From assembly GCA_030167865.1 (NCBI GenBank), contig JALAGF010006527.1:1-51909 (forward strand): DNA of 51,909 nucleotides. The letters are read 5' to 3'. The notes under the pieces were generated by a model. That model was not told where the DNA came from and ran no database searches. It saw only the letters and a list, made by a program, of their open reading frames with translations. The position numbers and the translations under genes are program-made. Below are positions 9,709-51,363 of this stretch, one piece after another. The first letter of the stretch is position 1; every line of letters begins with the position of its first letter. Source of the DNA: Craspedostauros australis. Taxonomy: Eukaryota.

Positions 9709-10407
9709 ATGCAGGGTTCCACGCATTTGAAAACAGTGGCAGATTCCTCCGACGATCCCATCAAGACACCACGGGAGTACACATCGGACCTGGTGGTGGT
9801 CCTGGACTTGGACGAGTGTCTGATCCATACGGATTTTGCGATGAGCATGTCTTTCTACAAAAAGAACGTCGCTCGGCAGGCTGAAAAGGACAACAAGGAC
9901 GGCAAGCAAGAGGAAGAGCGTAAGCGTGCTGAAGTATTCGAAATCAGAATTCCACACGACGGAGGCTATACTGTGTATGAACGCCCATTCGTGAGAGAGT
10001 TCCTTGAGGCTATCTCACAAAATTTTGAGACCCATCTCTACACCGCAGGACCGCGATCTTATGTCACTGAGGTCCTCAAGGAGTTGGACCCTGATGGCAC
10101 CATCTTCACCAAGGCATGGACTCGCCAGTTTTGCGACGAGGGATACGGAGCGTTCCTGAAGAACTTGGGCAAGCTGAAGTTCTCCAGGGGTAATCATGAT
10201 CCCAAGCGCACCGTCTTCGTCGACAACAGCATTCATAGTTTCCGATCCAACCCGCAGAATGGCATCCTCGTCCCAGACTTCTACAGCGATCCTGACGACG
10301 GTGAGCTCCAAAAGGTGTTGGATCTGATTCGCGAGTTGGACCAGAATCATCTGGATGTGCGTCCCGTCTTGGATGAGCGCTTTGGTCTCAAGGCCAAGCT
10401 CGCATAA
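9709..10407 (+). CDS. FCP1/SCP-like (NIF) phosphatase, copy 3, 232 aa
   Basis: VVLDLDECL and the same downstream motifs; the MQGST start matches copy 1. The frame is also open upstream to 9139. Confidence 0.88.
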   Translation: MQGSTHLKTVADSSDDPIKTPREYTSDLVVVLDLDECLIHTDFAMSMSFYKKNVARQAEKDNKDGKQEEERKRAEVFEIRIPHDGGYTVYERPFVREFLEAISQNFETHLYTAGPRSYVTEVLKELDPDGTIFTKAWTRQFCDEGYGAFLKNLGKLKFSRGNHDPKRTVFVDNSIHSFRSNPQNGILVPDFYSDPDDGELQKVLDLIRELDQNHLDVRPVLDERFGLKAKLA

Positions 10408-17535: not shown

Positions 17536-17907
17536 ACTATGAGCACAAGCGGAGTACTTACTCGTAGCATCAGTCTTGGGTTTTCTGTTATGTATTATAT
17601 TAAATGCTAACAGACTACGAGTGCGAGAGAGAGAGAAAGCAGTGTGTTCCCCCAACCCGCTATCCTCCCCAGATTTGACATACGCGTGCTTCTCACCTTT
17701 CACTAATCGCATTAATCGAAGATACTGGTCGGAGATTGCCTTCGGACAACACGCAACAAAAGATCAAGAGCTTCAACCAGTGCACGCCACAACAGAACAA
17801 TAGCCGCACGTCTGCAGCAGTTGCTCCTACGACTTGTGCACTTCGACAACACCACTCGCCCAACTTGGACTCAACTCAACTCAACAAAGTCCAACAATCC
17901 AACAACC

Positions 17908-23368: not shown

Positions 23369-24064
23369 GCATCCGAGTTCTGGCGTGGATCGTGCAAACA
23401 GAGTATCCGGAGGCAGCATCGCGCCACGAACGATCCCAATCAACACGCGCGTGAACCCGTACCACACGAGTCGCATGGCAGCGTGAAAAGGAATGCACCA
23501 AACATGAGTTAACGATTAACACAGCGCAAAGCATTCCACCATACGATTAGAAACCAAACAGAAACACACGACCCTGTCTTCGCCATTCTCTGCATGATGA
23601 TGCCGATAGAAGCCTTGTGTAATAATAGAATGGAACAGCACGGAGCGACAAGACGTGCATCTCGACAAGTCAACACCAACAACCCTCTCACTCTCTAGTT
23701 TGCCAACGCGTAACATATCTTCAGTCACGTGTTTCTGAATCACTGTTGGTTCGAATGGATTAGTCCAGCGAGTCGTCAAACAAGAAGAACACGAACAGAA
23801 TCAAGAACCCACAAGAAACGTGACACACGACTCACTCGCCGCAGAATTACGTGCCAAAAAGAACACCTTGCGCTTCAATTCCTCCACGACATCACCGTTG
23901 TCATCATCATCATCATCATCATCGTCATCGCTGGTGGCGCCATTGTTCCCACACTCTGCAACAAGCACAGCAAGACACTCTCCAGAATTGCGACAATCGA
24001 CGCATTTGACGACGCTTCCGCAGTTCGGAACAAAGAGAGAAGCAGAGAAAAGACGAGAGCAACG

Positions 24065-26574: not shown

Positions 26575-29150
26575 TTACTCCGCATCAACGGACTCGTCCG
26601 CACTTGGCATCAAGGCCTCCAAGGCCTTGTCCAGCGTGTTTGCAATCTGCCGCGCCGTCGGTCGCTCCTTGGGATGGAAGGAATAGCATTGGAGCATGAC
26701 GTCGCGGATGGCGATGACCTCGGCTTCTTGCGAGTTGACGATGTCCTCCGGGATGAATGGCAGGACCCCACGTTGCACCTTGTCGTTAATCTCCTCCTTC
26801 TCCGGCTTGCCACCGGGCTCGAGCTTGTTCCATGGCTGGTGGCCACAGATCAAACGGAAGAAGATATGTCCCATGGAGAAGATGTCCACCTTCTCCGTCA
26901 GATGCTGCTCGCTCCTCGCCTCCTCCGGCGATCTCCACTGCGGATTCGGGTACTGCGTTGGGAAGCCGCATGGTTCCTCCGACGTCGTGTTCCATCTGCG
27001 GATGATGCCAATGTTGAAATCGTTCAATTTGAGCGTGCCACCGACGCTGACGACGTTGGCCGGGTTGATGTCGAGATGCACGAAGGTTGGGTTTTCGTCG
27101 CCGTCAATGCCGTGCACATCAGCGAGTCCGTGCGCGATATCGCGCGCAATCTTGAGCCGTTCCAACGGTACCTTCTTGGCCTTGTCGGCCAACTGCCCCA
27201 CGCTGGCTCCATCAGCGAATTCAGTCATGACGGAGTGCCCGCAGAAACCAAAGATGTCAATCACGTGGTCCGATGATGTGAGGCGTTCCATGGCGACAGC
27301 GTCGACACGGTCATGCTCAAAGTGCGCATCCTCAAAGTTGTGCATGTACCTGTCACATGAATGAAAAACAGAAAAAGCAAACGTGTGAGTCTCACCACAA
27401 TGATCCATCCATTCATGCATGCATGCATTCAACAACAACAGCGCCCATTCCAAACTCACCTGAGAGTCTTGAGAACGACCGTATCCACATCTTCCTCGCC
27501 CAACAAATCCAACCGCCAGGCATTTCTCCAGAATCCCTTCGTTCCAAAGAGGCGGAATTCCTCGCCGCTGGATGCACCCATCGAATCCAGCTGGAGTTCG
27601 TGCATGCCGTTGCAGGAGGGGTGGAACGTCGTCTGCCATTCCTGCATCGGGACGCATTCTCCCTCCGAGTAGGGGCTGCGCATCTCCATCGTCGAGAGAC
27701 GTTCATCGTCGGAATCGAAGAATGGGTAATACTGCGTGTTGTCGGTGAAATCCGCGGGGTAGATCGTGATCTCGCGCGGGTCTGGCAGAGACTCGCCATT
27801 GGCATTGCTGAACGCAACGACGCGACGGCCATGCGACTTGCCGTGGGAGTACATGCCGGCATCGAAGGTATCGAAGGTTGACTGCTCCGGTGCTTCGAGC
27901 GATGGTGGCACCGCAACTGGGAGCGACCCGAGAATAACGGGGACAACCTTCGGTGCTGGCTTCTCCTTCTTCTTCTTGTCCTTTTTCTTATCCTTTGTCT
28001 TTTCCTTCTTCTTTTCTTTCTTCTCCTTCTTCTTGTGCTGCTGCTTCTCCTTCTCTGGCGCGGGCTTGGCGCCGTGATTGGCGCGATGTGTGCGGCTCTG
28101 CACGAGCATGCCACGCAATCCACTTTCGGAATGCATGAGGTTGTTGCGCTGCGGTTGAATGACGGGAGGGGCCATGGCGAGCTCCATCGCATCGGGGTAT
28201 AGCGCCTCCTTGGTGATGGTGGTGTTGGTGGAGATGAGCATGGTGGAGGAGGTGACGGCAGCGACGAAGAGCGTCCAGAGCATGAGCTGCAGTCCGCTGA
28301 GGCGCTTCTTGAACACGGTGGCGTTGGATAGCGATGACGCGGACGACGTGGCGGGAGATGGAAGCGGCGAGACCATGTGACGCGACCTGCGCTTGTTCCT
28401 GGATCGTTCCGAGCTGAAGTGGCTGGTGCCTTCGCCCCTGGAGCTCTCGGAGCTGTTGTCGGTGAATGGCGTCGACACGTGCAGATGCGGATCGTAGCCA
28501 GCGGACTTTTGCGAGGAGTAGTGCATGCGGTTGGATTGGAAGGAGCTGTGGAAGGCCTCGTCCGGATGGTAGGAATGCTTCATCCTGCGGCCTCGGGAGG
28601 AAGTCGAGGACAGGGACTTCATGCTGCCCGTGCTTCCATCGCGTCGTCGCACTCCCCTTCGCGGCTTTGGGGTTGTGAACTCCACGGACAGATCGCGGCT
28701 GTTGTCGTAGGGATGATACTGCTGCTGTTGCAACTGTTGCTGTTGCAATTGCTGCTGCGGATACTGCTGCTGCTCCTGCGGATGATGGGCAGCGTTGGCG
28801 AGCGAGAACAGATGGGTCTCCGAATGCTCATTCTCTCCCAAGTAGCCCTGCTGCAGATCGGAGAGCCCCCGGTCGCAGAAGGGCGATTGCCTCTGCCGCG
28901 AGGCTGCGTACGATGCGGAGGTCGCCGTGGAAACGCTCTCCTGAGGCGACATGACCATCATCGGCGGGTCGGGTCCGTGGTTGCTTCCGCTTCCGCTGCT
29001 GCTGCTGCTGTTGAGGTTGGAGACATGCTCGTCGTCATCGAGACACGCATCGCCTTCCGTGTTGTGGGGCGTGGTGGTGATGCCCGGAACCACGATCAAC
29101 GGGACTCTGCCGAGGCTCCATTGTCTGTCGTTGCGTTTTGGGTTCGCCAT
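26575..29150 (-). CDS. Type-II membrane protein kinase, PKDCC/VLK-like; exons 29150-27460 and 27349-26575
   Basis: Intron 27459-27350 (AG|GTGAGT...GACAG|G) joins two track ORFs in frame. Kinase motifs GTKGFWRNAW, VVLKTLR, AMERL, HLDINPAN, KLNDFN, WRSPEE, EKVDIFSMG, ERPTA. Hydrophobic LQLMLWTLFVAAV upstream of the kinase domain. Confidence 0.88.
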
Positions 29151-33397: not shown

Positions 33398-34405
33398 TTA
33401 CTCCAAAGCACCGGCCTCCAAGACGTTGATCATGCTGTACACCTTGCCCTCCGATTCCGTCTGCACCTTCTGAGCGAGGAACTTGACGGCATCTGCCGTA
33501 CCTTCGGCGTAGACCGTTCTTCCGGCGACATTGTGCTGCAACTGAAACTGCACGGACTTGTCGGCACTCGTCAAGGTGTACGTGTGGAAGGCATGTCCAT
33601 TGATGGCATCCGCGGGCACGCCGAACTCGACTGACTTGACATCATCCCGGATCATGGCGACATCGTCGTAGGTGTAGTCAGCGTTGTCGCTGAGCACCTT
33701 GAGAGAATCGATGACGGCCTTGGCCGTGCCGGATGTGTCGGCCTTGGTCTTTTGGTGGCTCTCCGTGACCTCCAGCTTGTATCCCGCAAAGGCGGCAGGG
33801 TACTTCGTGGCCAACTCCTCCAACGCGGCCTGCATGGCGACGATCTGCTTGCCCATGTTTGGCGCGATGACGGCGAAGTGCTTGGCCGATTCCATGTCCT
33901 GCAGCAGTTTCTCGCGGTCTCCGCCCGTCGTGCCCATGACGAACGGCACGTCGTTTTCGGCGTAGAACAAGGCGTTGGAATTGACGGCGGATGGATGCGT
34001 GTAATCGATGGCCAGCACGGATGCCGACTTCTTCTCCTTGAGGTCCGCGATGCGGGTCTTGATGTCATCCTTCTGGTTGGAGGGGATGAGGCGCACATCG
34101 GACGACTTGCCGGAGACGTCGTCACTGACGGTGATGGTGCATTCCGGGATGTCGGGTCCCGTCATGGCGATGGGCGACAGCTTCAACCCCTTGCGCAGGC
34201 AGGCCTCGGCAGCCGCGGTGGCCATGGGTCCTGGCATGCCGTTGACCATGATGAAGGCATCGACGGTGTCATCGGCGGCCATCGACAGACGGGAGACTGC
34301 CGTGGATGCCGATCGCTGCTGTTGCTGCGTTGTGATGGCGACATGCTGGAAGGCGCTCGCCGTGGAAAGCGAAAGCGCGATGATGAGGTTGCTCAGACGA
34401 AACAT
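33398..34405 (-). CDS. dapB: 4-hydroxy-tetrahydrodipicolinate reductase, plastid-targeted
   Basis: MVNGMPGPM, IDYTHP, PFVMGTTGG, APNMGKQ, ESHQKTKADTSGTA, GHAFHTY, HNVAGR..YAEG; signal peptide ending ASA|F followed by a Ser/Thr/Arg-rich transit peptide. Confidence 0.95.
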   Translation of the reverse strand: MFRLSNLIIALSLSTASAFQHVAITTQQQQRSASTAVSRLSMAADDTVDAFIMVNGMPGPMATAAAEACLRKGLKLSPIAMTGPDIPECTITVSDDVSGKSSDVRLIPSNQKDDIKTRIADLKEKKSASVLAIDYTHPSAVNSNALFYAENDVPFVMGTTGGDREKLLQDMESAKHFAVIAPNMGKQIVAMQAALEELATKYPAAFAGYKLEVTESHQKTKADTSGTAKAVIDSLKVLSDNADYTYDDVAMIRDDVKSVEFGVPADAINGHAFHTYTLTSADKSVQFQLQHNVAGRTVYAEGTADAVKFLAQKVQTESEGKVYSMINVLEAGALE

Positions 34406-35060
34406 GGTGGCTTTGATAGACGAATTTATGGATGGCTGTTGGTGTGCTTGCAGAATCCTTTTCTCGAATTGTGTTCTGCCGGTCAGGTTGCTGTGGGTGT
34501 TCTCATGGAGTGTGAGTGTCTGTGTGTGTGTCCGTGCTGGGATTGGTATCGGCATCAGCACCAACAGCGACAGGAGGACTGTGCTGTGTTTGGATACGTG
34601 AGCAGTGGCAGGAATGATCGCCGCGGCACATGCGCGTGATCGGGTTGTGGTTTGGCATTCTTCTTCTCGTGACGTTTTGTGTGGTTGGAGAAAGATGTCG
34701 GAATGATTCAGTCGACTCTATCAGAACAATCGGATCGGAGAACCGGGTTTGGAGAACACGAAACGTGTCCCGAATTCAATGTGACGAAAACAGCGTGGAC
34801 GAGGCACAACAATGGTGATGGATCGTGTCAGACAACACAAAACGATGGTGATGGATCTTGTGCCAGACAAGGCACACAGAAACCTCGCCCTCTCTCTCTC
34901 GCTCTCTCTCTTCGGAGTAGAGGCAGCAACTCCAACGAGTTCATCATCCAACAATGCTCACCGTGGAGCCGTGCATTCCAAACAACACGCTGTCGAACAT
35001 GGACAAGAGCAACCATCACCAAGGGGAAGGTGGAGACGCCACGGAAAAACGACAGCACAG

Positions 35061-35149: not shown

Positions 35150-35772
35150 CACTGACCAGGAACGCACAAAAAGATTCCAACAGACACAAAAGTTGAGGAG
35201 ACCAAGAACAACAAACTGTTGGTCTCATCATACGCACCCAGCATTCACTCTCTCGAGGCTTTCCTCGTTCCATAATCACAAACTCATCCAAGAGAGCACG
35301 GCCATCATCAGCATCATCATTTTCATCATAATCAACGACATCATCACAAACGACATCAACACACCCACACCACTCAACCATCAGAACCGGCCACGCCTTC
35401 TCCAACCTCCTCAGTACTCGTATTGATAGGTCAAGGAGTACCTCGGAGAGCAGCGGAGAAAGCACACACATAGATTCATCGCAGGTACCGAACAGCGCCG
35501 CTGCCACTGCCACTGCACACAACGCCACCACACGACACGACAGGACGAGGTGATTCGAAGGCAACCGAAGGATTCAAAGCTAAGCGGAGCTTGACTGGAG
35601 TCCTCACAAAGGCAGAACAAAACAAGACAAGGTGAGCAGAATCAAACATTGTTGTCGATATCGACGGCACCATCAACAACAACACTCACACTAACACCAG
35701 AACTCCACGGTTTCTTGTTGCTGTTGCCCTTTCGCCTCCAATCACTTTCGCTGAACGGTTGTCAACAGCAAG

Positions 35773-38700
35773 ATGAGCGACATTCGACAGCCGACGGAAA
35801 AGCACAAGGAGAATCTTACTCGCTTGAATCCAATCTTCAACACAATGGCTTTCTGGACCAACATGTCGAACTTGGAAGATGACTCCAAGGCACAAGCATA
35901 TCTGATGGACTGTGCCACCATGTCCATGCAAAAGGCCGGCATGACCGCCTTCAACGAGACCGACCTTCGGAATGCACATGTTAAGATTGTTTCGAAATGG
36001 GACGACTACCGCCGCAGCATTTTGAGGCAGGTGCGCAATGGCCACGAAGCTCCACGTCTGGACGAGGTGGTTACGAACGACATCGATTGGGGGCGCACCA
36101 ACTCGGTGGCAGAGTGGCTCACAGCCTTCCTTCGTGTCAATAAAGCAATCCCCCAGTGCGTCGTCTCCATTGCGCGTACATTCGAGGATGATAGCAAACT
36201 CGTCGATACCGCGAAGCCACGCCAATCAGTCCTCAAACTGTTATCGGAGGTCTTCAACAAGGATGACAATGGCTTTCGAGGTCTGCAATGCACCTCGAGA
36301 ATCACAACCGAATATCGTGATCTGGACAACACCTGGATACGCCACGGCAATCAAGTTACTGGCTACGCACACTACATCGGCAAGCCCAGCTTTCGACATG
36401 GAGGAAATCGCGACATGCTCCCGGAACGAGTCTTCATCAGGGCGCCAACCACACCAACAGGCACCCACAAGGACAATAACGTTCATGTGTACTACCAGGA
36501 GAGTGGTAGCGGCAAGACCGTGGAGCTCGCGGCGAGCGCATACACCAGAAACGCTCTGTTCACTATCATTCTCAACACTGACGATGTGAAACTTCTTGCT
36601 CCATCGAGTGGTCTCGACGTCAAGACAGACCGAATGAATAAATCTTGGATGAAGCTCACAAATCAAGTCAACTCATTCCTCATGCAAGACCGAAAAAGTT
36701 TCAACAGGCTTGTCGACTTCCTGGGACTGTTGGATCGTAAGATCGAAGAGCAGACTACACTGTTCATCGTCGTTGCGATTGACGAAGCAAGCAGGTCCCC
36801 AAACTTTGTCCGGGCCATCATTGAGAGCCACAAAGACTTTGGAAAGATGCTGGGGAAGTTCATCCAGTACAAATGTACTAAAGAGTTGATGGAGAAAGAC
36901 AAGCCCCTTCCACCAGGAGCAACACAATCCTCGTGGTATGGGAGAAAACAGAGCCTGTCCTTTCAGGAGTCCGAGAACATGCTGAAAATACTGGAGGAAG
37001 GCAAATACTCCCATCGCTTCAATCACATTGACATCGAAGTCCTATTCTCTGTCGCAGGCATCGGCGTCTCGCAAGTGATCGCAGGATCTGCACTTCCAAA
37101 CTTCATCCACTTGCAGCCCTCTGCGAAAACCAACCCCGGCCAAGTCTACGACACTCTTCGCTGCGAATTCGCGAGAGACGACACGAATACCATCATACCA
37201 AAGTACACAGAGCTTCGGCAGTTCCCTCTTCTCAAGGCCATCGTTGATTCCAACGCGCGGATGATCTCAATCTACATGCTCGAGTCAGCATATCAACAAG
37301 ACATCAACGAACGTGAGGGAAAGAAATCAAGTGAGAATGCATACGAGCAGAATGCTATCCTTTCCCGCACCTTCAACCGTTTCATGACAAGCAATGGCAT
37401 GGATTGTCTATTGTGCGAACCGCACCATGCACGGCTCGCGGCATCTCAGGCTTTGTCAGTTGTTCTTTTCCAACAGGATCAACCTTTCGGCCAACCGCTC
37501 AACGATGATCAACTGAAGAACATGGATTACGGGATCACCTTCCAACACTTCAGGAATGACGAGGGCGGTTCCGTCATGCGTCGGTTGGTCTTTGAGTATG
37601 GTTTGGTGACTGCGAAGCCATTCACAGGGGCAAATGGCCGCACGCCGCAGGCAAGTCCATTCGAGCTCAGTGATGCCATGCAGCTCCTGTGCCTTTGGCT
37701 GATCCAAGGCGGCCCAGCAGTTCCGGCGGAGAAATCGTTCCTGGGAACAACCTCAGCCAGCTTTGAAACCCTCACCGCGCTGCTGGTCGGGGCCGCCATC
37801 GCCGCGTCCTCCGTCGTCAAGAAGGATGAGGACGGGCGCGTCCTTGCTGCTCCCACCGAGGGTTACGATCATGGCACAGTTGTCCAGCAGGAAGCAGACA
37901 TCATTGCTGCTCTGAGCAAGGTCGGGATGAGGACAAAAGCATGCATGTCGGACAACAACCAGGTGTCCCACTACACATGCGAAACGACTTCAGGCGTGAA
38001 ACCTGTGGCAAAAAGCGCCGGCGATCTCTTTTGGTCTCTCAAGGATGCTCATCCGGCACTACTTTCCATAGACTTCGAGATTCCTCCGGTGTACTTCCAC
38101 AAGTCCACGCTGACTTTCGTGGAGGAAGAAGTGGACGTGGCGCGCATCGAGGCTGCTGCCGACGGAGCTGCGGAAGCTGAATTTCACAAACTGAACAAGG
38201 CTCACTTTGACCAAAACGGAACCTTACAAACAACTCCACTGGCGGACGTTGGTTCAAAGAAGATAAAAAAGGAGCTAGCATCCCATTATGCAATGTTCGT
38301 CGATGAGGACCTACTCCACATCCTCAGCGAGATCCGGAAGCTCGAAACACAATCCTCTGACATGCATGACTTCAACCCACGATTAATCAAGAGCGACGGG
38401 ACGACAAGATTTGTCAACTACGCCGGCATATTTGAAGGTGTGGACAAGATCTTCTACCTGCCACTCATCCACGTTGCGGACGACAGCAGCGAGCTCGCAG
38501 ACGCGTACGTCACCTTCCTTGCGGAGTCGCCGACCACCGAAGTAGGTGGTAAACGCTACAGCGTGCGATCGATCTGCATCCAATCCAGAGATCTCGCACA
38601 GGACACGCGTCCGAACAAGAAAGACTACCTGGAACGTGCCCTCGCAGTGGCGAGCCCGGCACTGGACCCTCTCTTTGGTAGAGACCGCGTATACACCGTT

Positions 38701-38952
38701 GCAGGTACACAAGGCACAGTTCCTTGGGATAATGAAGGAAGAAACTTTCCGTACATTCCTTTCGCGGTGGACAAGTCCAGTATCCTGAAGACTCCGATGG
38801 AAGCGTTGAGCAAGCGCCGTGGCCCAACCGCAAAACATGGCCAGCACGCTGTACTCTCGGTCGGACCAAGAAAAAAAACGAGTAAGACAGAGAAGGAACT
38901 CGGGTACATCGATCGCCTCAAGCAGGAGAAAGAGGACCAAGACGACGGCTAA
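35773..38952 (+). CDS. Large P-loop NTPase protein, Crinkler/RHS (CR)-effector-like, with possible C-terminal REase-fold domain, 1059 aa
   Basis: Intronless ORF; Walker A QESGSGKT, Walker B IVVAIDEA, sensor-like SVAGIG, NARM; C-terminal ADAYV...ICIQSRD. Confidence 0.65.
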   Translation: MSDIRQPTEKHKENLTRLNPIFNTMAFWTNMSNLEDDSKAQAYLMDCATMSMQKAGMTAFNETDLRNAHVKIVSKWDDYRRSILRQVRNGHEAPRLDEVVTNDIDWGRTNSVAEWLTAFLRVNKAIPQCVVSIARTFEDDSKLVDTAKPRQSVLKLLSEVFNKDDNGFRGLQCTSRITTEYRDLDNTWIRHGNQVTGYAHYIGKPSFRHGGNRDMLPERVFIRAPTTPTGTHKDNNVHVYYQESGSGKTVELAASAYTRNALFTIILNTDDVKLLAPSSGLDVKTDRMNKSWMKLTNQVNSFLMQDRKSFNRLVDFLGLLDRKIEEQTTLFIVVAIDEASRSPNFVRAIIESHKDFGKMLGKFIQYKCTKELMEKDKPLPPGATQSSWYGRKQSLSFQESENMLKILEEGKYSHRFNHIDIEVLFSVAGIGVSQVIAGSALPNFIHLQPSAKTNPGQVYDTLRCEFARDDTNTIIPKYTELRQFPLLKAIVDSNARMISIYMLESAYQQDINEREGKKSSENAYEQNAILSRTFNRFMTSNGMDCLLCEPHHARLAASQALSVVLFQQDQPFGQPLNDDQLKNMDYGITFQHFRNDEGGSVMRRLVFEYGLVTAKPFTGANGRTPQASPFELSDAMQLLCLWLIQGGPAVPAEKSFLGTTSASFETLTALLVGAAIAASSVVKKDEDGRVLAAPTEGYDHGTVVQQEADIIAALSKVGMRTKACMSDNNQVSHYTCETTSGVKPVAKSAGDLFWSLKDAHPALLSIDFEIPPVYFHKSTLTFVEEEVDVARIEAAADGAAEAEFHKLNKAHFDQNGTLQTTPLADVGSKKIKKELASHYAMFVDEDLLHILSEIRKLETQSSDMHDFNPRLIKSDGTTRFVNYAGIFEGVDKIFYLPLIHVADDSSELADAYVTFLAESPTTEVGGKRYSVRSICIQSRDLAQDTRPNKKDYLERALAVASPALDPLFGRDRVYTVAGTQGTVPWDNEGRNFPYIPFAVDKSSILKTPMEALSKRRGPTAKHGQHAVLSVGPRKKTSKTEKELGYIDRLKQEKEDQDDG

Positions 38953-39918: not shown

Positions 39919-41084
39919 GATCATACGATTCAGTATACTCTTGAGTAGCCTCCTTGGGTATCATGCATGAACAGCTGCATTGTTGAATAGTCGTAAGGTC
40001 CCATCTTCAGTTCCACGCACGGGCCGCTCCAACGAACGAGCGCAGAGGGGAACGCAGAATCAGTCTGGCGCGGACTCCCACAGAACTCCCACGCAGGAAT
40101 TTCCAGGAATACTGTAGAACCTCCAAGAAGTTTCTTTTGTCGCTGATGTGAATCCCGGTTCTGGTCGACCCATGTGACTCGAAGATCTTTGCAGATCGAC
40201 GAAAATGTTAGCACGGTACCTATGCTACCACGCGTCCTGGCTCGTAGATACAATACTACCTCCCAAGCAGAAAAAGTTGTATAAATAGTATTCTATATGG
40301 TTGATGAATGTATGCTTGTCTTGATTGTGGAATGATGTGCCACTGAAAGGTCCATTACGGAGTACTGGTAGAGTTCCACGAGGTGATCATTGAGGTTGCA
40401 CAGTGTCGAACAGCCAACAGCTCGAGACGAAGGAGGACGTTCTTTTCCATTTCTCTTTGTCCAAGCCAAGCCAAGCCAACCATCAACAACGATATGGAAC
40501 ACCATGCTCTCCTCTGCACATACTTGCCTCTTCTTTTCATAATGTTTATTTGTGAATACCGTGCTTGTATTCCAACACTCATCAAGATAGTAGTGGCATG
40601 GCTGTTGCTTGCTTGTCTGCTCGCAGTCACACCCAACGACGCAAACAAGGAAAGAAGAATTCGTTCACGTGGATTCAGTCCTGCGAGACGATGACTTGAG
40701 GTTTGACAGTGAATTTTCTCGCAAGATACCAAAACGAAGATCTCGATGACCGCTCCATGAAGTCCAAAGAAGAAAACACGGAACCGCGATGTCCGCCGCG
40801 TCTGGATCGCTTTGTTTCACCGGATCCATTTCCACTCACGGTGATTCTGCCAGGACTGGCTGCCGTGAGCGAACTCTCTCGTCATCGTCGTTGTTGTCGT
40901 CGTCATCATCGTCATCAGGATCACTCTGCTCGTGGCTCGTGCCCTGTTCCTCGTGGATTCATGGATCGTGTTCAGTGACCGTCACCCCCATCATAAAAAC
41001 GAACACCGACAACCAACAGCGACAGTAACAACCAACAGCAACCAGCAACCAGCAACAACTAACAGCCAGCAACAACCAACAACC

Positions 41085-43817
41085 ATGGACACGGCGAATG
41101 AACCAGCAGCCTTGGTTGAGGAACCATCGCCCAGCGATGCCAAGCCCGACAACAAGAACGATGGAAATGCCGACGCTGCGACGCAAGCACAGTCATCGGA
41201 CAAGAAGACCGTCCTGGTGTTGATGTCACCCTCCAGCGGCAACCGCCAACAGCTCACAAATCAAACTCGCGTCATGACCATGTTCGCGGCCCACGACATC
41301 GAACCCACAACGCTGGATGCCGCCGACCCTGCCAACAAGGACCGCCGCAGCGAGCTCTTTGCCATCAGCGGCATCCGTGCCAAGTACCCGCAGGTCTTTC
41401 TCGTCGAAGGCGACGCCACCACGTTCCTCGGTGACTACGATGCCATCGAGTACATGAATGACTCCGGCACGCTCGCAGCCTGCGTGGCACCGACAACTGT
41501 CGCGTCGTCCGAAGCTCCTGCGACTTCGGATGATCCTGTGACAGAGACTGCGCCAGAAGCAACGGAGCAAGCAGACATCAAGCCAGAAGAGGTCACTGCC
41601 CCCGTCAGCGATCCGCAATCAACCGAAGCTGCTTCAACCGAAGCTTCTCCAACTGAAGCTTCTCCAACTGAAGCTACTTCAACAGAGGACATCGAGACAA
41701 AGGCAGAAGACGTGCTTGCAGCTGAGCCTGAGGCGACTGACAAGGCTGCGGCTGAAGCTCCAGTCGAAACTCCAGACGAACCAGAGAAAGAGCCAGTTGC
41801 TGAGACTGAGGCTGCAGTCGAAACCAAGGCAGAACCATCAGATACCACAACAGCCGAGCCGGCCGCAACAGCTGAGGTCGAGTCAGGGCTGGAAACAGAA
41901 ATGGAGACTCCAGTTGAGACTGAACGAGCCGCATCGGTACCGGTTGAGACCGAGCCACAGACAGAAACGCCAGCGGAAGCAGAAAAGCCCGAGCCAGTCC
42001 AGTCTGAGCCACAAGCAGAGGAGCCAACGGAGACTGCCACTAACACCGAGCCCACGGCAGAGACTCCAGCTGCTGAGTCCGTGACAGAGACCAATGCGGA
42101 CACTGCAGAATCATCTGAGGTTGAACCTGAAGCACCAAAAGAGGCCGAGCCAGCCGCGGAGACTCTGGTGGAGACTTCGGTGGAAACCAACACAGCGGCA
42201 GTCAAGGCGACCGAACCTGAAGCAGAGACACCAACAGAGGATGCGGTCGCGCCAAAGCCTGAGCCGGCCGTGGACACTTCAGTTGCTGATGACTCGCCAG
42301 CCACAGCAGATATGGCAGAAGTCGAATCAGAGGCCAAACCAGCAACTATGCCCGAAGTGGTAGAGGAGACCGAGCCTGAGCCAGATGCAGCTGTGAAGAC
42401 TCCACCCACCGAGACTCCAGAGGAGACTCCAGAGGAGACTCCAGAGGAGACCAACGCGGAGCCAGCCGATCCTGCGCCTGACGCAGCAACAGACGAAGCG
42501 GTCACGCCCGTGCCAGAACCAGAAACACCAACGGCAGAAATTGAACCCGCGTCCGAACCAATCGTGGACGCTCCAGTTGAGGCCAACGACAGCACCCCAG
42601 AGCCAGTTGAAACCAAGGAAGAGGCATCGGCTGCGCCTGAAATCGAGCCAGAAGTGACCAACGAGGCGGAGACTCCAGTCAACGCCGAGTCAGAAGCACC
42701 AACGGCGGAAATTGAACCCGCTCAAGCTGAGGCTCAAGCTGAAACTGAGCCAGCGGTTGAAACACCTGCCGAAACGAAGGAAGAAGTGGCAAGTTCGACC
42801 GAGGCAGACTTAGAAGAAGCGGAAGAGACGCAGGTTGAGGAGCCAGTGAAGGAGGAAGAAAAGTCGGCAGTTGTGGCCGAAACCGAACCAGCAGCAGCAG
42901 CAGATGAACCTTCGGCTCAGGCTGAATCCGAGCCAAACATTGAGGGTCCAGTCCAAGTGGAAGAAGAGGAGAAGGAGGAGAAGGAAGCCACAGCTGCATC
43001 CGATCCCGAACCAGCGACAGAGGCAGCACCAGTCGAAGCCGAGACGGAAACAACAGCAGACACCACCAAGGAAGATGCCGCACCGGCAAAATCCGAGGCA
43101 GAAGCAGCCGAGGTCGAGCCAGACGCAGCTGACACGCCCGAGGTCAAGCCTGAACCTGAGCCCGAAGCTGAGCCAGAGACAGAGCCAGTTGTGACCGAAG
43201 CGCCAACACCAGCTCAGACCGAGACCGCGCAAGATGCAGCGGACAATGCTGAGACCGCAGCAGAAACGCCAAGCCTCGAGAAGGATGACTCGTGGGAAGT
43301 AGTCCCCGCCATGGAGGCGGACGTGACTGCCGACCCATCAACCACCACCACGACCGTGCCAACAGAGGCAGAAGGAGCAGCAGAAACAGATGCGGCACCA
43401 GCCGGTGAAAACAAGGAGACGAGCACACCTGCGGAACCAGAATCCAATGATGCCGCGCAGGAGCAGGCCACCGCAGCAGACGATGCCCAGGAAGACGTCA
43501 AGGCAGAGGTACCTGAAGAGCCCCAGGAGCCAAAGGTGGACGAAGCACTCAAGTCTCCCGCGGCAACTCCATCCCCACCAACAGAATCCGCGAACGGAAG
43601 CCGCATCGAAAGCGAACCACCGGTAGTCGAAGAGAAACCAAAGACGCGAGATCTATCTCTCCCATCCGAAGACGCCAACGACAACGACAAGCCCACGACC
43701 AGATCGTTGGATTTCTCGGAGGGCAGCACGAAGAAGACCGCAGATATTCCGCCAATGGCAATCGCAGTCGTTGCCGCCGCCATCGTCATTGGCATATACT
43801 TGCAAGCCAGAACCTAA
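41085..43817 (+). CDS. SH3BGR/glutaredoxin-like domain + long acidic E/A/P/T-rich disordered region + C-terminal transmembrane anchor, 910 aa
   Basis: VLVLMS...NQTRVMTMF...LDAADPANKDRRSELFAISG...YPQVF...FLGDYD..E..ND.G.L; C-terminal IAVVAAAIVIGIYL followed by QART*. Confidence 0.82.
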   Translation: MDTANEPAALVEEPSPSDAKPDNKNDGNADAATQAQSSDKKTVLVLMSPSSGNRQQLTNQTRVMTMFAAHDIEPTTLDAADPANKDRRSELFAISGIRAKYPQVFLVEGDATTFLGDYDAIEYMNDSGTLAACVAPTTVASSEAPATSDDPVTETAPEATEQADIKPEEVTAPVSDPQSTEAASTEASPTEASPTEATSTEDIETKAEDVLAAEPEATDKAAAEAPVETPDEPEKEPVAETEAAVETKAEPSDTTTAEPAATAEVESGLETEMETPVETERAASVPVETEPQTETPAEAEKPEPVQSEPQAEEPTETATNTEPTAETPAAESVTETNADTAESSEVEPEAPKEAEPAAETLVETSVETNTAAVKATEPEAETPTEDAVAPKPEPAVDTSVADDSPATADMAEVESEAKPATMPEVVEETEPEPDAAVKTPPTETPEETPEETPEETNAEPADPAPDAATDEAVTPVPEPETPTAEIEPASEPIVDAPVEANDSTPEPVETKEEASAAPEIEPEVTNEAETPVNAESEAPTAEIEPAQAEAQAETEPAVETPAETKEEVASSTEADLEEAEETQVEEPVKEEEKSAVVAETEPAAAADEPSAQAESEPNIEGPVQVEEEEKEEKEATAASDPEPATEAAPVEAETETTADTTKEDAAPAKSEAEAAEVEPDAADTPEVKPEPEPEAEPETEPVVTEAPTPAQTETAQDAADNAETAAETPSLEKDDSWEVVPAMEADVTADPSTTTTTVPTEAEGAAETDAAPAGENKETSTPAEPESNDAAQEQATAADDAQEDVKAEVPEEPQEPKVDEALKSPAATPSPPTESANGSRIESEPPVVEEKPKTRDLSLPSEDANDNDKPTTRSLDFSEGSTKKTADIPPMAIAVVAAAIVIGIYLQART

Positions 43818-45715
43818 TCATGACGCTGCTCGGCAGGCAAACCGTGGTATGCGACACGCATGGATATGCACACGGAAGACTACTCATACTCAAACCTTCT
43901 ATTTCATGGCGACAACAAGGCCAATCAATCGCACAACGCAGATCTCCTTCGATTAAATCGGAAGGCAGGCGAAGCAACACAGAAAGTACACAAAGACAGC
44001 ACCAACAGCAACGATAAAGACGAAGACAAGAGGACCGACAACAAACACAACAAAGCCAGCAGCAATCACGGCAAGTGGTGACACCAAAGGTTATGAAAAC
44101 TTGGAAATGGCCGCCGAACCACAACGAACGCGGAAGCAAATCAGGTCACAAACTCGGACAAGGATTCTCCCAAGAAGAACGAAGACGCCCGCCCCTACGA
44201 TCTAATGATACTAATACTGCACTCTGGCCGTGAGAAAGTTAGCAATACTACACTCTTGAGAGCATGCACAACAACGTTAAACTCCTATTATAAGAAGTAG
44301 AATACTATATTTCTTTACTCTCCTTTCTGGTCTATTCTACTCGACCGTCCCATCCCATCACTTCGTCCGGAACTAATCCGTTGTCTCTGCATGCTTCTGT
44401 ACAGCTTTCGCAATGGCATCAATGATGCGTGGTGTACGATGCACGAACACGATTGTTGACGGCAAAACAGAACACCAATCTTCCCTCCACTGCAACGAAG
44501 AGACTCGCGCAGCGTTCGTGTTGTTGGTTGATAGAATTCTCATCATGACGTCACAAAGCAGATTCGGAATTGCAGAAGGAACGTTAACCGTTAAATTGCA
44601 GTCAGAAAGTTGACGCCAAGACGACATCAGAGAAGATACCAATCGACACTCGGAGATTGCTGCAACACGGCAGCACGTTTCAATACAGGGTCGTTCAACG
44701 AAGACGGAAGTCAGCGAAGAAGACGCTGAAGTGCAAAGAGCCTGTCACGTTGGGGGGAGGCGAGATGCAACAGAACATTTCTGATGATCGCTTCCTCCTT
44801 TCCTCGCGTGTTCCTTCTTCCCATAAAATTCACCATCAAAACCCAGGCTTTGCCGAAACACAGACATCACCGCCTCGGACAACACCCAACAATGCCCATC
44901 ATCGCAACACCCTCACCACGTACAATCAACATGGCTGCTTCATCCGACGAAGACGATGTCTCCTGCTCCTCCGGCTTGACGAAGGGATCCAACACCAGCA
45001 ATGATGTGAGTTGCGCGCTCAAGAAGAATCGCGTTTGGAGAAACTGTTCTTTGTCGCAGGTTGATGCCATGCGATGCAATGCAAGCAAGGATGGGCAAAG
45101 ATTCTTTGCTTGTCTGCTTGCGGAGACGGGCCGCGGGCAGCACTGCGTAACAGAACGGAGCAGAGGATGATGATGGTGATAGATGCTGCGCCCAGGATGG
45201 ATCCATTGAGGAAAGGTTGTGCATCCACACACCAGGATCCACGACGGTCATTGATGATTGTTCGTTGCGAAACAAGAACTTCGAGGCGAGTCCAGTGACC
45301 TCCACTGCCGCCGTTCTCATCCCCATCGTCATCATTGCATTCATTACGACGAGACCGTCGCTCACACGCCTCCCTCTTCCTCCCTTTCGTCAATCGTCAT
45401 CGTCATTGTTACCACCACCATCAACAAACACAACGGCAACAACAAAATGCTGATGCCTTCTGCCTCATCGTCTGTTCCTTGAATGTTCTCTGTTCGTTTG
45501 CAATTCCTATCGTGGCTTTGTTTGTTCTTTTCGCGATTCTCATTGTTCTCGTCCACCACGTCGCACTTTTGTCAACACAAACAACATCATCTTGCACTAC
45601 GTCGCACTCAACCCATCAAACAATACATTGCGCTACAATGCCATATCACAATGTGCCAAACGTTTACATACCGCATCCTCTCTGTCAGCCATTCAACACT
45701 GCTCTGGAAAAGGTC

Positions 45716-47259: not shown

Positions 47260-48069
47260 TCAGATTAGTTGGACTTGTCGATTGCGAGTGTGCTGGATCT
47301 GGTGTTGTTGTTGATGCTGTTGTTGCTGTTGCTGTTGCTGTTGTTGCTGTTGCTGTTGTTGCTGTTGATGCTGCTGCTGCTGTTGTTGATACGGTTGAGG
47401 ATTGTGTTGCAGATATGGGGGCTGCGGCTGCAGCTGTTGATGGATCTGCGTCTGCATCCGCGTCTGCGGCTGCATCTGTGGTTGTAGCTGGGGTTGTATC
47501 ATCATTTGTGGCTGCGCCTGCGATTGCATCTGATGCTGCGGCACTCCTGGTTGCACAGACATTGGAGCAGCCACACCTTGCGCATGCAACGGCTCCGCGT
47601 TGGCAATGACGTCCGACACAAGCTCGGCATGCGCCACCTCGATAGGATGATGCGGCCTGCGCATGTCCTCGCCACTGCCGCGATGCGGCACGTCCCCATT
47701 TTGCAGCGCCGATCTGCGCTCGAGGCTGAGGTATGATTCCGATGCGCGGTTCCATCGCATCCACAAAGTCTCATTGCGCTCGTTGAAGTCGCGGATGAAC
47801 TTGCCCAGCAGCCGCTTGCGGCGCCGCGTTTGGTTGGAGTGGCGCACGCCCCACAAGGCCAGCGGCAGCAGCAGCGGGCCCGCCATGAGGAGGACGCCGT
47901 CCGCGCGGCCGCTGCGGGCTGGTTTCAACGCATCGTTGAGCTGTTCGATGATGTCCGTGTACTCTGTCGCATTGAGGATGCCGTGCAGCGGGACATCGAA
48001 CGGATCTGGTTCGAACTTGAAATCGAAACCGCCTTGGATGGCGCGTTGCGGCACGACGATGCGTGCCAT
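47260..48069 (-). CDS. ERF4/GOLGA7-family-like protein with C-terminal polyQ
   Basis: RIVVPQR...F..DP....LHGIL...EY..IIEQLND, a short hydrophobic stretch, then L.KFI.DFNE...L.MRW; QP/polyQ tail. Confidence 0.7.
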   Translation of the reverse strand: MARIVVPQRAIQGGFDFKFEPDPFDVPLHGILNATEYTDIIEQLNDALKPARSGRADGVLLMAGPLLLPLALWGVRHSNQTRRRKRLLGKFIRDFNERNETLWMRWNRASESYLSLERRSALQNGDVPHRGSGEDMRRPHHPIEVAHAELVSDVIANAEPLHAQGVAAPMSVQPGVPQHQMQSQAQPQMMIQPQLQPQMQPQTRMQTQIHQQLQPQPPYLQHNPQPYQQQQQQHQQQQQQQQQQQQQQQQQHQQQHQIQHTRNRQVQLI

Positions 48070-48626
48070 TGGATTCAATTGAATTGGACTGAATTGAACT
48101 GAAGATATGTGATGTGATGGAATGAGATGAGATGAGACAAAATAGGATTCGTCCGAACATGCATCTAATGGTGTTGCATTGTGCTGTGTCGTTTGAGACG
48201 CCGCAAGGGCGGAAGATGGTGTTGTCTCCCTTCGCTGTTGTTGTTGTTGTTGTGTCAAGTTCCTTGCGTTGCGCCATTTTTGTTCACACGTCTCGCATGT
48301 TTAGTCACGTACATCATCCACACTCATGACTGCATCCAGATTCTATCGTGTTGGTGTTGCTGTCACCGCGCCACAAGAGACAGGAACAACTCAAGACACA
48401 CAATCAAATGCAACAGCGGCCCTTTGCTTCTGGCGAAACGGCGAGGTGTTACGATGGATCTTGGTGCTATTACACTTTTATTTCTGTGTCCTTTTCACAT
48501 CCCGAACATGTCTCGGCGGATGCATTGTGATTGGCAGGCCTGAGGCGCGATCGTGACACTGCGATGCTCTTGCCACATGGATGGTCCGAACTTCCGCGCG
48601 AAGACAAGGGGGAAGATTAGCATTTA

Positions 48627-49991
48627 CTATGAGCATGCGTTGTTGCCAATGCATTCTCCCGCATCGACGTTCAAGGAGTTGAAGGAACACGCGAATTGGC
48701 CGACGCAGGCTTCGTCTGCGATGCTTCCTGAGTTGCCAAGGCAAGCACTGTTGCCAATACAAGAGTCGTCTGCAATGGTTCCCCTATTGATGAGGCACGC
48801 CTGGATGCCAATGCAAGATGCGCTGCCAACATCGGCCTTGTTGGAAGAACACGCGTCACTCTCGATGCACGAACCCTCGCCAATGGCATTGGCATTCACA
48901 ATGCAAGCCTGATCGCCAGAGCAAGCGGAATCGTCGACCGCTCCTTTATTGCTCAGGCATGAGCGGACTCCGACGCATGAGTTCGCTCCCACAGTCCCTT
49001 CGTTCACTGTGCATGAATAATCACCAGAGCACGATCCTTCTCCAATGCTCGCGGAGTTTTCGGTGCATGATAAGTAGCCGTAGCACGCGCTGCTGGACAC
49101 ATTGCCAGTGTTACGATAGCACGCCAAGTAACCATTGCAGGATACTTCACCGATCTCACCAGTATTGAAAAAGCAAGCAGCCTCGCCGTTGCAAGACGAT
49201 GTGGGAACTGCCACTTCGATGCCGTGACATGCGATCTCGCCGTTGCAAGAGTAGGAAGCGATCTCGATGGTCGTTGCTGAGCTAGAGTCGAAGTAGCAGG
49301 CACCATCGCCGTTGCAAGAGTTTGGACACACCGTGACATTGGCGTCGTCGCTCCAACTGCAGGCAGGATTCTGGTCGTCTGCTGGTGCCTCGCAGCAGGT
49401 CGCGTTGGCAGCGGCGCAGCTGGCGATGACTTCGTCTGAGGTGCCAGTGAAGCATGGGTCAACTTCGTCCACGTCATCAGGTCGAGGTGGCTTCGATTCC
49501 TTGGATGCCTTGAGCTGGCGTCCATCAGATCCGCTTGTCTTGACAGTCTTCTGGCGGAGAGACACAAACAGCGACTCTCTTGCGGCACTTGCGGTGGCGT
49601 CCCCAGAGTCGTGTTTCGGACCAGCCGCGCCTGCGCTTCCTCTCAGGCGTCCTTGATCGACGTAGTGGTTGGTGTTGGGGGAGGAGACGGAACGTGGGCG
49701 TCGGTTGGTGTTTGGTGTGGTGTTTCGTGTCTCAGAAGCGATGTGATTGCTTTCGCTCCATGGTTTGCGGGCCAAGAACAAGTCAAGCTTATCCAGGGCT
49801 TGCTTTTGTGTATCCACAGCATGGTTTTTGCTCGTGGATGTGTGCTGCATCTTCTGGATGCGAGCGTTGCGGATGTCGGCGATGATATCCACGTTGGATG
49901 CAGTGTCCGCCTCGGATGATGCAGTAACATTGCCAAGGATGAGGCTCTGCGTGATAGCGAGAGCGAGGGTTTCTTTCTTCATGAATGGCAT
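48627..49991 (-). CDS. Secreted Cys-rich repeat protein (18-aa xCxGxxAC repeats), 454 aa
   Basis: N-terminal hydrophobic signal, basic pro-region with RLRG and RQL, then ~12 repeats such as IGEGSCSGDYSCTVNEGT. Confidence 0.82.
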   Translation of the reverse strand: MPFMKKETLALAITQSLILGNVTASSEADTASNVDIIADIRNARIQKMQHTSTSKNHAVDTQKQALDKLDLFLARKPWSESNHIASETRNTTPNTNRRPRSVSSPNTNHYVDQGRLRGSAGAAGPKHDSGDATASAARESLFVSLRQKTVKTSGSDGRQLKASKESKPPRPDDVDEVDPCFTGTSDEVIASCAAANATCCEAPADDQNPACSWSDDANVTVCPNSCNGDGACYFDSSSATTIEIASYSCNGEIACHGIEVAVPTSSCNGEAACFFNTGEIGEVSCNGYLACYRNTGNVSSSACYGYLSCTENSASIGEGSCSGDYSCTVNEGTVGANSCVGVRSCLSNKGAVDDSACSGDQACIVNANAIGEGSCIESDACSSNKADVGSASCIGIQACLINRGTIADDSCIGNSACLGNSGSIADEACVGQFACSFNSLNVDAGECIGNNACS

Positions 49992-51363
49992 GTTTGAATG
50001 GTTGTTGGAGTTGGATGAATCGATGTGTGTGGGTGGTAGTTTTGGTCTTACGTATTGTGTGCTTGTGCCTTAGTGTTGGTGTTGGTGTGAATAGAATAGT
50101 TGTTTGGAGATTGTGTCGAGTTGTATTTTATGAGACGGAAATTGGTCGTGGAGGTTTGATGTATCTCTGGTTGTTGATTTGCTTTTGAATGTCGACTGCT
50201 ACCACGTACGACTGCGAGCTATGTCAAGTATGCTTCCCCTTGCAGAGGACACTGTGCCAGACGAGTCACCTCTCTCTCTCTCTGGAGAGAGAATAGGTCA
50301 CCGGTTTCCATACTGGCACATTGAACAAACTTGTATCGATGTCAATCCCAGTGTGAGTGTATCATGCTCGAATACCATACGATCTCCACAGGTATGTTTT
50401 TGGGCGCGAAAATCAATGCTCGGGAGATTTCATACCGGCCACCTTCTCGTGGTTTTCTCTGCGGTGTTCCCGAAAATCTATTCGGCGGCAAGCTGCCGTT
50501 GTGGCAAGTTCCCTGCATCTTTCTCACTTGTTGCGTATCATTACTATGTATCTTGTCCTTGATGCCCTGGCTGAACTGCGTGCTTCACTTCGGGGCATTA
50601 GATTGTCGTTGACTCCTCTTTTCTCTATCACTATATTCGTTGATTAGTTTGATTTGATTCCCATCACTTGTGTTCACGCATTCCCTATTCCGAGCGTTGC
50701 GGATCGTATTGTTTCTGCATTCATGAATGGATTCGGGACCTTCTGCGCCAAAAGTGTCACCACTCGTCTCAGTGTGGACATCAACAACAATCGTTCGGGT
50801 GCCCTTTCATGCTGGTGCATCGGCGAGGTTTACATTCATCCCAGCGCTAGTTTGCTCTCCGTATCTTATGTCTAATATCCATAAAGAAATTCGTCCACGA
50901 TAAAAGTCCAAAATTGTCTCAGGAGACCAAGCGGATTCGAGGGGTGCCAAAATCGGTCTCCTCAGACCAAAATCAAGCAACGCGACGTTTTATCGCGATG
51001 GCATTTTCTTCGACCACCTCGACTAAAACTATTTGTTCGCGCTCACTTTTNNNNNNNNNNNNNNNNNNNNNNNNNNNNNNNNNNNNNNTCCTGGCATGCC
51101 CTCCTGTTTACTATGGCTCAATGCTTCTCCTGGATGCATTGAGCCACTTGCATCTCATCACAGTTCTTCGTATACATATGTTCATTGCATGCTTATCCAT
51201 GTCCTCCACGCTCTTCACAGGACATGATCGTTCCGCAGCGTTCTTCCTCTTGCATCACAATGANNNNNNNNNNNNNNNNNNNNNNNNNNNNNNNNNNNNN
51301 NNNNNNNNNNNNNNNNNNNNNNNNNNNNNNNNNNNNNNNNNNNNNNNNNNNNNNNNNNNNNNN

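What the first reader, a model, noticed from the sequence alone, without database searches (positions are those of the whole stretch)
41085..43817. Candidate selective-autophagy receptor: tail anchor + ~750-aa acidic spacer + LIR + thioredoxin-fold head
Seen: the acidic disordered region is almost devoid of aromatic residues except one island, EKDDSWEVV (43284-43304); the protein ends in one TM helix with a 4-aa tail and starts with an SH3BGR-like domain lacking CxxC. Known: acidic-S-W-x-x-(L/I/V) is the Atg8-interacting motif, and organellophagy receptors (BNIP3/NIX, BCL2L13, TEX264) combine a membrane anchor, a long disordered linker and a LIR. Inference: an undescribed diatom ER-phagy, mitophagy or plastid-ER-phagy receptor or tether.
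Basis: partly seen in the sequence, partly recalled or inferred. Interest (0 to 1): 0.75.

Follow-up and report, generated by a model that had tools for sequence, protein, structure and literature searches.

The report
Diatom tail-anchored SH3BGRL-like tether protein
A diatom membrane-anchored protein carries, on a long floppy acidic stalk, a domain shaped like the proteins that cap actin filament ends in animals and yeast, plus one good-looking ATG8-binding motif, so it is more likely a membrane-to-actin tether that may also be marked for autophagy than a proven autophagy receptor.

Summary
The anatomy is real: a 910-aa single ORF with a cysteine-free glutaredoxin-fold head (41-134), a ~750-aa acidic disordered stalk whose only Trp sits in DSWEVV (matches the strict published cLIR; 0.8% of local shuffles), and a tail anchor with a 4-aa tail. 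Its model is closest to SH3BGRL3, Aip5 and SH3BGRL2, now shown to bind actin pointed ends (TPECs), though true glutaredoxins tie within 1 Z. The head defines a large diatom-expanded family (1,042 clusters), and 11 homologues share the same tail type. In them DSWEVV is not conserved in sequence or position and the head-to-anchor spacer is only 54-231 aa. Relaxed LIR motifs are enriched in those 11 (8 vs 2.0-2.5 expected; 6 of 11 proteins) but not in 175 other family members. Stricter LIR definitions are not significant. Best reading: a cytosol-facing membrane-actin tether with a plausible accessory LIR. A dedicated organellophagy receptor stays a minority option. No binding was shown here, to actin or to ATG8. 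New variant of a known kind; interest 0.5.

The parts
41085..43817 (+). Single open reading frame, 910 aa, tail-anchored SH3BGRL-like protein
   Evidence: ATG follows a CAA-rich leader in ACC-ATG-G context. One contig of run X1 (RNA status only a guess) is identical over 43632-44217 and spans TM and stop without a gap.
41205..41486 (+). Head, residues 41-134: glutaredoxin/thioredoxin-fold domain without CxxC, SH3BGRL/Aip5-like
   Evidence: AF2 model mean pLDDT 90.9. Top 8 VIA-align rows are all SH3BGRL or Aip5, Z 12.2-13.4; 1T1V Z 13.4, rmsd 1.9 over 91. Pfam SH3BGR 16.9 bits, below cut-off 21. 1,042 related clusters.
41487..43745 (+). Acidic E/A/T/P-rich disordered stalk, residues 135-887, net charge about -0.24 per residue, with short internal DNA repeats
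   Evidence: composition, charge, tandem repeats. Disorder is inferred from composition, not predicted by a dedicated tool.
43284..43304 (+). LIR/AIM-like motif DDSWEVV (W737), the only Trp of the protein
   Evidence: matches cLIR and xLIR as defined in PMC5119064; p = 0.008 in local shuffles
43746..43802 (+). C-terminal transmembrane helix, residues 888-906
   Evidence: KD 2.36. Ranks above all 174 decoy TM-like segments against a profile of 11 homologue tails, 13.7 bits vs 9.6 for the next.
43803..43814 (+). 4-residue tail QART, charge +1

Best explanation
A tail-anchored, cytosol-facing tether. The C-terminal helix inserts post-translationally into an organelle or endomembrane, ER-type or mitochondrial not resolved (inferred from anatomy). 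The acidic stalk holds the head far from the membrane (inferred). [quoted passage not shown] DSWEVV is a plausible accessory ATG8-binding site (about even odds of real binding in cells) that could route the protein or its membrane to autophagy, but it is not the conserved core of the family. Shown here: architecture, fold, family, shared tail, motif statistics.
For: Fold: the top 8 structural rows are SH3BGRL3, Aip5, SH3BGRL2 and SH3BGRL; the actin-bound SH3BGRL2 chain 8IAH_Z scores Z 11.8, rmsd 2.0 over 90. Like these, the family lacks the redox motif: CxxC/S in 3 of 381 domain copies. Several homologues pass the Pfam SH3BGR cut-off (P0010 80 bits, P0015 53, P0013 25). PMC12827327 shows SH3BGRL proteins cap actin pointed ends and proposes the same for Aip5. 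Aip5 is likewise a 1,233-aa protein with one CxxC-less Grx-like domain (PMC6737964). The family profile positions 5-40 align to residues 5-40 of 8IAH_Z (E 0.038). At or next to the paper's actin-contact residues (8-17, 39, 40, 46), S8 is 91%, D38 97%, G39 86% and R48 94% conserved. Some family members fuse the head to an actin-binding ADF/cofilin domain (P0164; P0020, listings). What the tail-anchored homologues share is head plus tail, often 2-4 heads in tandem (8 of 11), not the motif.
Against: True glutaredoxin domains tie with SH3BGRL within 1 Z (12.1 vs 12.2-13.4), and identity to SH3BGRL/Aip5 is only 15-23%. The conserved S8/D38/R48/YPQ-F/GD positions are also general glutaredoxin-fold hallmarks (recalled), and most of loop 9-17, the main published actin contact, is variable in the family. 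The head is fused to many partners with no actin link: saccharopine-dehydrogenase-like, TIP41, TPPII, MFS, PLC-X, MSP+RING, BSD, Elp2-like WD40. That could mean a generic adaptor. The xLIR enrichment specific to the tail-anchored group favours giving autophagy more weight.
Confidence: 0.45

Rival explanations
1. One reading: a lineage-specific selective-autophagy receptor (ER, mitochondrion or plastid ER). The anchor fixes it to the cargo membrane, the disordered stalk bridges to the phagophore, and DSWEVV binds lipidated ATG8.
For: Strict cLIR match in an otherwise Trp-free acidic stalk, p = 0.008; 0 of 130 background Trp in cLIR context. xLIR motifs outside head and TM in the 11 tail-anchored homologues: 8 observed vs 1.95-2.46 expected, 0 of 500 shuffles; 6 of 11 proteins vs about 2 expected. 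In 175 other family members 33 vs 38.2. Examples: EEWQVV (P0010), EDWVDL (P0015), DTFVII (P0013), DGFEEV (P0157). ATG8 is encoded in the genome. For TEX264 only length and flexibility of the spacer matter (PMC6971691), so shifting motif position is tolerable. Algal cargo receptors are expected to be lineage-specific (PMC11449223).
Against: DSWEVV itself is in 0 of 11 homologues; 5 of 11 have no xLIR, including two long proteins, P0178 and P0025 (the latter has a weaker acidic Tyr core). 3 of the 8 hits (ASYQEI, GSYDSI, PEFDPV) look like other motifs. Stricter definitions are not significant: cLIR 2 vs 0.48-0.62, p 0.09-0.14; my own acidic-LIR rule 4 vs 1.9-2.3, p 0.12-0.18. Five definitions were tried and only xLIR was clearly significant. 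Ordinary disordered regions of this genome also run above shuffles for xLIR: 10 vs 6.6 at the loose mask, 5 vs 1.7 at the strict mask. xLIR has low specificity by its authors' account. A LIR makes a substrate or adaptor as readily as a receptor.
Confidence: 0.2
2. The head is a generic, non-catalytic protein- or glutathione-binding module unrelated to actin. The protein is a membrane scaffold of another pathway (trafficking or organelle contact), and the Trp motif is incidental or binds a non-ATG8 partner.
For: Wide range of unrelated fusion partners. Glutaredoxins tie structurally. 4 of 11 tail-anchored homologues carry F-x-[DN]-x-F motifs instead (FENEF five times in P0010, three times in P0015; FEDDF in P0178) vs 5 of 175 other members. 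These resemble AP-2 ear-binding motifs (recalled, not tested) and point to membrane traffic. The query has none.
Against: SH3BGRL/Aip5 rank above all catalytic glutaredoxins, and both of those lineages bind actin. The motif statistics for the query and its group exceed shuffles.
Confidence: 0.35

Closest known systems
SH3BGRL / SH3BGRL2 / SH3BGRL3 (TPECs; PDB 1T1V, 1U6T, 8IAH chain Z; Pfam PF04908)
   Same: Cysteine-motif-free glutaredoxin fold of about 95 aa, Z 11.8-13.4, rmsd about 2 A; muscle SH3BGR also has a Glu-rich C-terminal extension (PMC12827327).
   Different: Small soluble proteins without anchor. Only 19-23% identical. The query scores below the Pfam cut-off. The diatom group adds a 54-750-aa linker and a tail anchor, often with 2-4 heads.
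Yeast Aip5 (PDB 6ABR, 6M4C)
   Same: Long protein with a single CxxC-less Grx-like domain that acts on actin; Z 12.4-12.8.
   Different: Domain is C-terminal and the protein is recruited by Spa2 and Bud6, with no membrane anchor reported in the passages read; 15-22% identity.
Transmembrane organellophagy receptors TEX264, CCPG1 (PMC6971691); BNIP3/NIX, BCL2L13 (recalled)
   Same: Single membrane anchor, negligible lumenal part, LIR inside a long disordered cytosolic region.
   Different: No sequence or domain homology was found (no Pfam match). In those receptors the LIR is the conserved functional element (recalled); here head and tail are conserved and the motif is not.
Diatom proteins annotated 'SH3-binding, glutamic acid-rich protein', e.g. 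Nitzschia inconspicua KAG7341581.1 (P0013), Nitzschia sp. Nitz4 (P0015)
   Same: Same head family (up to 58% identity, P0157) and homologous tail.
   Different: Mostly 2-4 heads near the anchor with the long acidic region N-terminal. The query has one head and the acidic region between head and anchor. Automatic names only; no function found in the searches.

Membership tests
SH3BGRL/TPEC | Thioredoxin/glutaredoxin fold | tested here: met
SH3BGRL/TPEC | No CxxC/CxxS catalytic motif | tested here: met
   only Cys is C133; 3 of 381 family domains have the motif
SH3BGRL/TPEC | Pfam PF04908 above curated cut-off | tested here: inconclusive
   query 16.9 bits < 21; homologues with tandem heads pass, P0157 and P0178 do not match
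SH3BGRL/TPEC | Conserved actin-contact surface (zone 1: residues 8-17, 39, 40, 46) | tested here: inconclusive
   register; S8, D38, G39, R48 conserved, loop 9-17 mostly variable; the paper's alignment figure was not visible
SH3BGRL/TPEC | Binds and caps the F-actin pointed end | not testable with these tools
   needs biochemistry
Transmembrane selective-autophagy receptor | Membrane anchor with cytosolic disordered region | tested here: met
   (sequence-based)
Transmembrane selective-autophagy receptor | LIR/AIM consensus inside the disordered region | tested here: met
   cLIR and xLIR match
Transmembrane selective-autophagy receptor | LIR conserved among homologues | tested here: inconclusive
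   not conserved in sequence or position; xLIR in 6 of 11, enriched; cLIR in 2 of 11, not significant
Transmembrane selective-autophagy receptor | LIR-dependent ATG8 binding | not tested
   no ATG8 complex prediction was obtained; needs pull-down
Transmembrane selective-autophagy receptor | Required or sufficient for vacuolar delivery of an organelle | not testable with these tools
   needs cell biology
Catalytic glutaredoxin | CxxC/CxxS active site | tested here: not met

The most novel reading that the evidence does not exclude
A diatom family of tail-anchored, dual-function organelle receptors: SH3BGRL-type heads hold or nucleate actin filament ends on an organelle membrane, and a position-shifting LIR hands that membrane to ATG8. 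This would be both the first transmembrane organellophagy receptor in diatoms and the first membrane-anchored TPEC, coupling actin anchoring to selective autophagy in one chain.
Probability: 0.15. Interest if true: 0.8.

Novelty: new variant of a known kind. Interest (0 to 1): 0.5.

Why it matters
Diatoms depend on actin for gliding and wall patterning, and the proteins that fix filament ends to membranes are, to my knowledge, not identified. A large diatom expansion of an actin-end-capping fold, with tail-anchored (18 of 194 after removing two doubtful cases) and CaaX-ended (5 of 194) members, gives direct candidates and a simple in vitro test. If the LIR works as well, it supplies one of the lineage-specific autophagy receptors that the algal review (PMC11449223) expects but does not name.

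Tried and rejected
Complex prediction, head plus two copies of the genome's actin: no answer, ipSAE 0.17 and 0.23 against a mark of 0.34. The actin lacked its short first exon, no alignments were used and controls were not folded, so this is no evidence either way. No ATG8-peptide complex was obtained.

TAL-effector hits to the head profile are sums of many 1-5 bit repeats and were rejected as artefacts.

An upstream in-frame hydrophobic stretch (40869-41084) was rejected as a signal or TM: it has no Met, comes from simple GTC/ATC repeats, and homologues show no such segment.

Head trees do not fix orthology. FastTree paired the query with P0157 at support 0.69. A bootstrap IQ-TREE run timed out. 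A fast IQ-TREE run on 40 domains placed the query with P0010/P0015/P0093/P0025/P0172, with no support value printed for that node and low support on deeper nodes. 'Homologue', not 'orthologue', is therefore used.

Organelle could not be called. TM GRAVY 1.75-2.6 with tail charge +1 to +2 argues against peroxisomes (mean +6.0) but lies between the ER (+0.2) and mitochondrial (+1.1) means of PMC5450235, which are mammalian rules.

Expression: no RNA holder listed. Run X1 covers only the 3' end. ESM Atlas gave no usable hit for residues 700-910. The metagenome scan gave 17 loci, none tail-anchored. Three look-ups in earlier scan findings returned nothing. An R-x-L-D-[LFI] motif near the anchor (twice in the query) was in only 1 of 11 homologues and was dropped.

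Full report
Observation. The window holds one open frame at 41085-43817 (+) that gives 910 aa. Residues 41-134 form a folded head, 135-887 an E/A/T/P-rich acidic stalk, 888-906 a hydrophobic helix (KD 2.36) and 907-910 the tail QART. The stalk has two aromatic residues, W737 and F877. W737 sits in DDSWEVV at 43284-43304. The motif matches both the strict cLIR and the relaxed xLIR as defined in PMC5119064 (passages read). A cLIR match arose in 0.8% of 20,000 local shuffles of the query. In 65 long ORFs from 270 kb of the same genome, 0 of 130 Trp in disordered stretches were in cLIR context. The motif is about 150 aa from the anchor and 600 aa from the head. One contig of run X1 is identical over 43632-44217 and crosses TM and stop without a gap; whether it is RNA is a guess.

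The head. Pfam SH3BGR matches below cut-off (16.9 vs 21 bits). The AlphaFold2 model is confident (pLDDT 90.9). Foldseek lists GLRX3, Aip5, SH3BGRL3 and chain Z of the spectrin-actin junction among its first rows. PMC12827327 (I read the abstract, introduction, the first three of ten text parts and most of the discussion; figures and supplements not seen) shows that human SH3BGRL proteins lack the redox motif, cap actin pointed ends and weakly nucleate. It names contacts A8-K17, I39, A/T40 and R46, and suggests the same mechanism for Aip5. Aip5 is a 1,233-aa protein with one CxxC-less Grx-like domain (PMC6737964, passages). The family profile aligns 5-40 to 5-40 of 8IAH_Z. Across 381 domain copies S8 (91%), Q20 (93%), D38 (97%), G39 (86%), R48 (94%), S55 (97%) and YPQ-F are conserved, loop 9-17 is mostly variable, and CxxC/S occurs in 3. 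This fits an SH3BGRL-like non-enzyme but does not single out actin.

The family. A profile search found 1,042 clusters at E <= 0.001, of which 150 were listed; searches added more. After dropping the query fragment and 9 near-duplicates or fragments, 194 proteins remained; 98 have two or more heads. Named members are diatoms: Nitzschia, Cylindrotheca, Seminavis, Entomoneis, Thalassiosira, Skeletonema, Coscinodiscus. Single-domain look-alikes in the Atlas are mostly oomycete. The window's own taxon is not given; 'diatom' is inferred from these relatives. The head is fused to ADF/cofilin, BSD, MSP+RING, saccharopine-dehydrogenase-like, TIP41, PLC-X, MFS, TPPII and Elp2-like WD40 domains. The own genome has at least two paralogous genes, a 4,339-codon frame with two heads and a 1,353-codon frame with one.

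Tail-anchored group. 20 of 194 proteins have a hydrophobic C-terminal segment and 5 end in a CaaX box. By eye I assigned 12 (query plus 11) to one tail type and 6 to other tails, and treated P0040 and P0165 as probable truncation artefacts (P0040 left out of all groups, P0165 kept among the 175 others). A profile of the 11 homologue tails ranks the query's tail above all 174 decoy TM-like segments, 13.7 vs 9.6 bits. Head trees are unstable but place the query beside tail-anchored members. In the 11, the last-head-to-anchor linker is 54-231 aa and the long acidic region, when present, is N-terminal, so the 750-aa spacer is peculiar to the query. Three of the 11 (P0023, P0093, P0157) look N-terminally incomplete.

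Is the LIR conserved? Not as a sequence or a position: 0 of 11 carry DSWEVV. As a motif class, xLIR outside heads and tail occurs 8 times vs 1.95-2.46 expected under local shuffles (0 of 500), in 6 of 11 proteins vs about 2. The 175 others give 33 vs 38.2 and the 6 other tails 0. A stricter disorder mask gave 5 vs 0.77, and 14 vs 14.3 for the others. Against this: three of the eight hits do not look like LIRs; cLIR gives 2 vs 0.48-0.62 (p 0.09-0.14); my own acidic rule gives 4 vs 1.9-2.3 (p 0.12-0.18); five definitions were tried; and ordinary disordered regions of the genome also exceed shuffles (10 vs 6.6 and 5 vs 1.7). The signal is suggestive, not decisive. ATG8 is encoded in the genome. 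The TEX264 precedent allows a free spacer (PMC6971691, passages). Four homologues carry F-x-[DN]-x-F motifs near the anchor, which I recall as AP-2 ear ligands; untested.

How it most likely works. The helix anchors the chain in an organelle or endomembrane with everything else in the cytosol. Tail charge and hydrophobicity do not separate ER from mitochondria (PMC5450235, passages). The stalk gives reach. The head, by fold and by the behaviour of its two closest characterised lineages, most likely grips actin pointed ends, and tandem heads in homologues would raise local concentration, which the TPEC paper says nucleation needs. The LIR-like motif may add ATG8-dependent turnover. I give this 0.45, a dedicated organellophagy receptor 0.2, and a generic non-actin adaptor 0.35. 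Architecture, fold, family and motif counts are shown; actin binding, ATG8 binding, localisation and function are inferred.

Novelty. Four full-text searches found no description of this family or of a diatom organellophagy receptor: diatom + ATG8 + selective autophagy receptor (17 papers, 16 listed, none on such a protein by listing), SH3BGR + diatom (1 unrelated), SH3-binding + glutamic acid-rich + diatom (0), and SH3BGR/stramenopile/oomycete/algae (top 10 listed, none with SH3BGR). The library lacks most subscription papers, and no supplements were read; diatom proteomics supplements could list these proteins. The algal autophagy review names LDSP and NBR1 and expects lineage-specific receptors (PMC11449223, passages). 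PMC7297954 and PMC11420354 were seen as passages only and carry no weight here. Database names such as 'SH3-binding, glutamic acid-rich protein' are automatic. I file it as a new variant of a known kind: an SH3BGRL/Aip5-like domain in a membrane-anchored architecture. It resembles TEX264-type receptors in layout, but membership is not established.

Verdict. Observation confirmed; interpretation partly supported and redirected toward a membrane-actin tether with a possible LIR. Interest 0.5; the dual actin-autophagy reading has probability about 0.15 and would deserve 0.8.

Noticed in passing
G000:C4667:11016-24032 (+) (L005-L007): 4,339-codon open frame, a paralogue: BSD-like repeats, two SH3BGRL-like heads, then about 2,900 acidic residues, no tail anchor. 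Its only two Trp after residue 1400 both sit in S-W-H-E-[LV] (DGSWHEL, DESWHEVV), each followed by basic residues; W-x-x-L/V cores that miss xLIR by the His.
   Followed up: partly
G000:C2943:6802-10860 (-) (L008): 1,353-codon paralogue with one divergent head and two IMP2_N domains (Pfam PF18590, 122 bits).
   Followed up: partly
P0010, P0015, P0093, P0178 (between last head and anchor): Repeated FENEF / FEDDF motifs (5, 3, 1, 1 copies) vs 5 of 175 other members; resemble AP-2 ear-binding F-x-[DN]-x-F motifs (recalled).
   Followed up: partly
P0049, P0106, P0110, P0137, P0145: Family members ending in a CaaX box, a second route to membrane attachment of the same head.
   Followed up: no
P0164, P0020, P0175 and relatives: N-terminal ADF/cofilin-type domain fused to 1-3 heads and an acidic tail (Pfam hit for P0164 and P0020; P0175 similar by eye).
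   Followed up: partly
P0007, P0008: Proteins of 2,740 and 2,990 aa with 9 and 7 tandem heads.
   Followed up: no
window 7468-8514 and 9112-10407 (+): Two adjacent NIF-family phosphatase frames, probably a tandem duplication.
   Followed up: no
window 14404-20145 (+); 26575-27702 (-); 33398-34717 (-): DEAD-box helicase with SPB4-like extension, eIF2D-like gene, a protein kinase and a dihydrodipicolinate reductase: ordinary neighbours, no autophagy or actin cluster.
   Followed up: no
window 35755-38952 (+); 23714-26536 (+): Frames of 1,065 and 940 codons without a Pfam match; the first has a Walker-A-like string near its N-terminal third (seen by eye).
   Followed up: no
window 47260-48300 (-); 48627-50069 (-): Weak ERF4/GOLGA7-like match followed by poly-Q; a Cys-rich DUF7640 repeat protein.
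   Followed up: no
L009 (G000:C5392): Single ATG8 gene found; a short first exon is separated from the rest by an intron of about 850 bases.
   Followed up: partly
G000:C1467 (L027, L030, L033): Three actin matches on one short contig in mixed orientation, plus further partial copies elsewhere.
   Followed up: no
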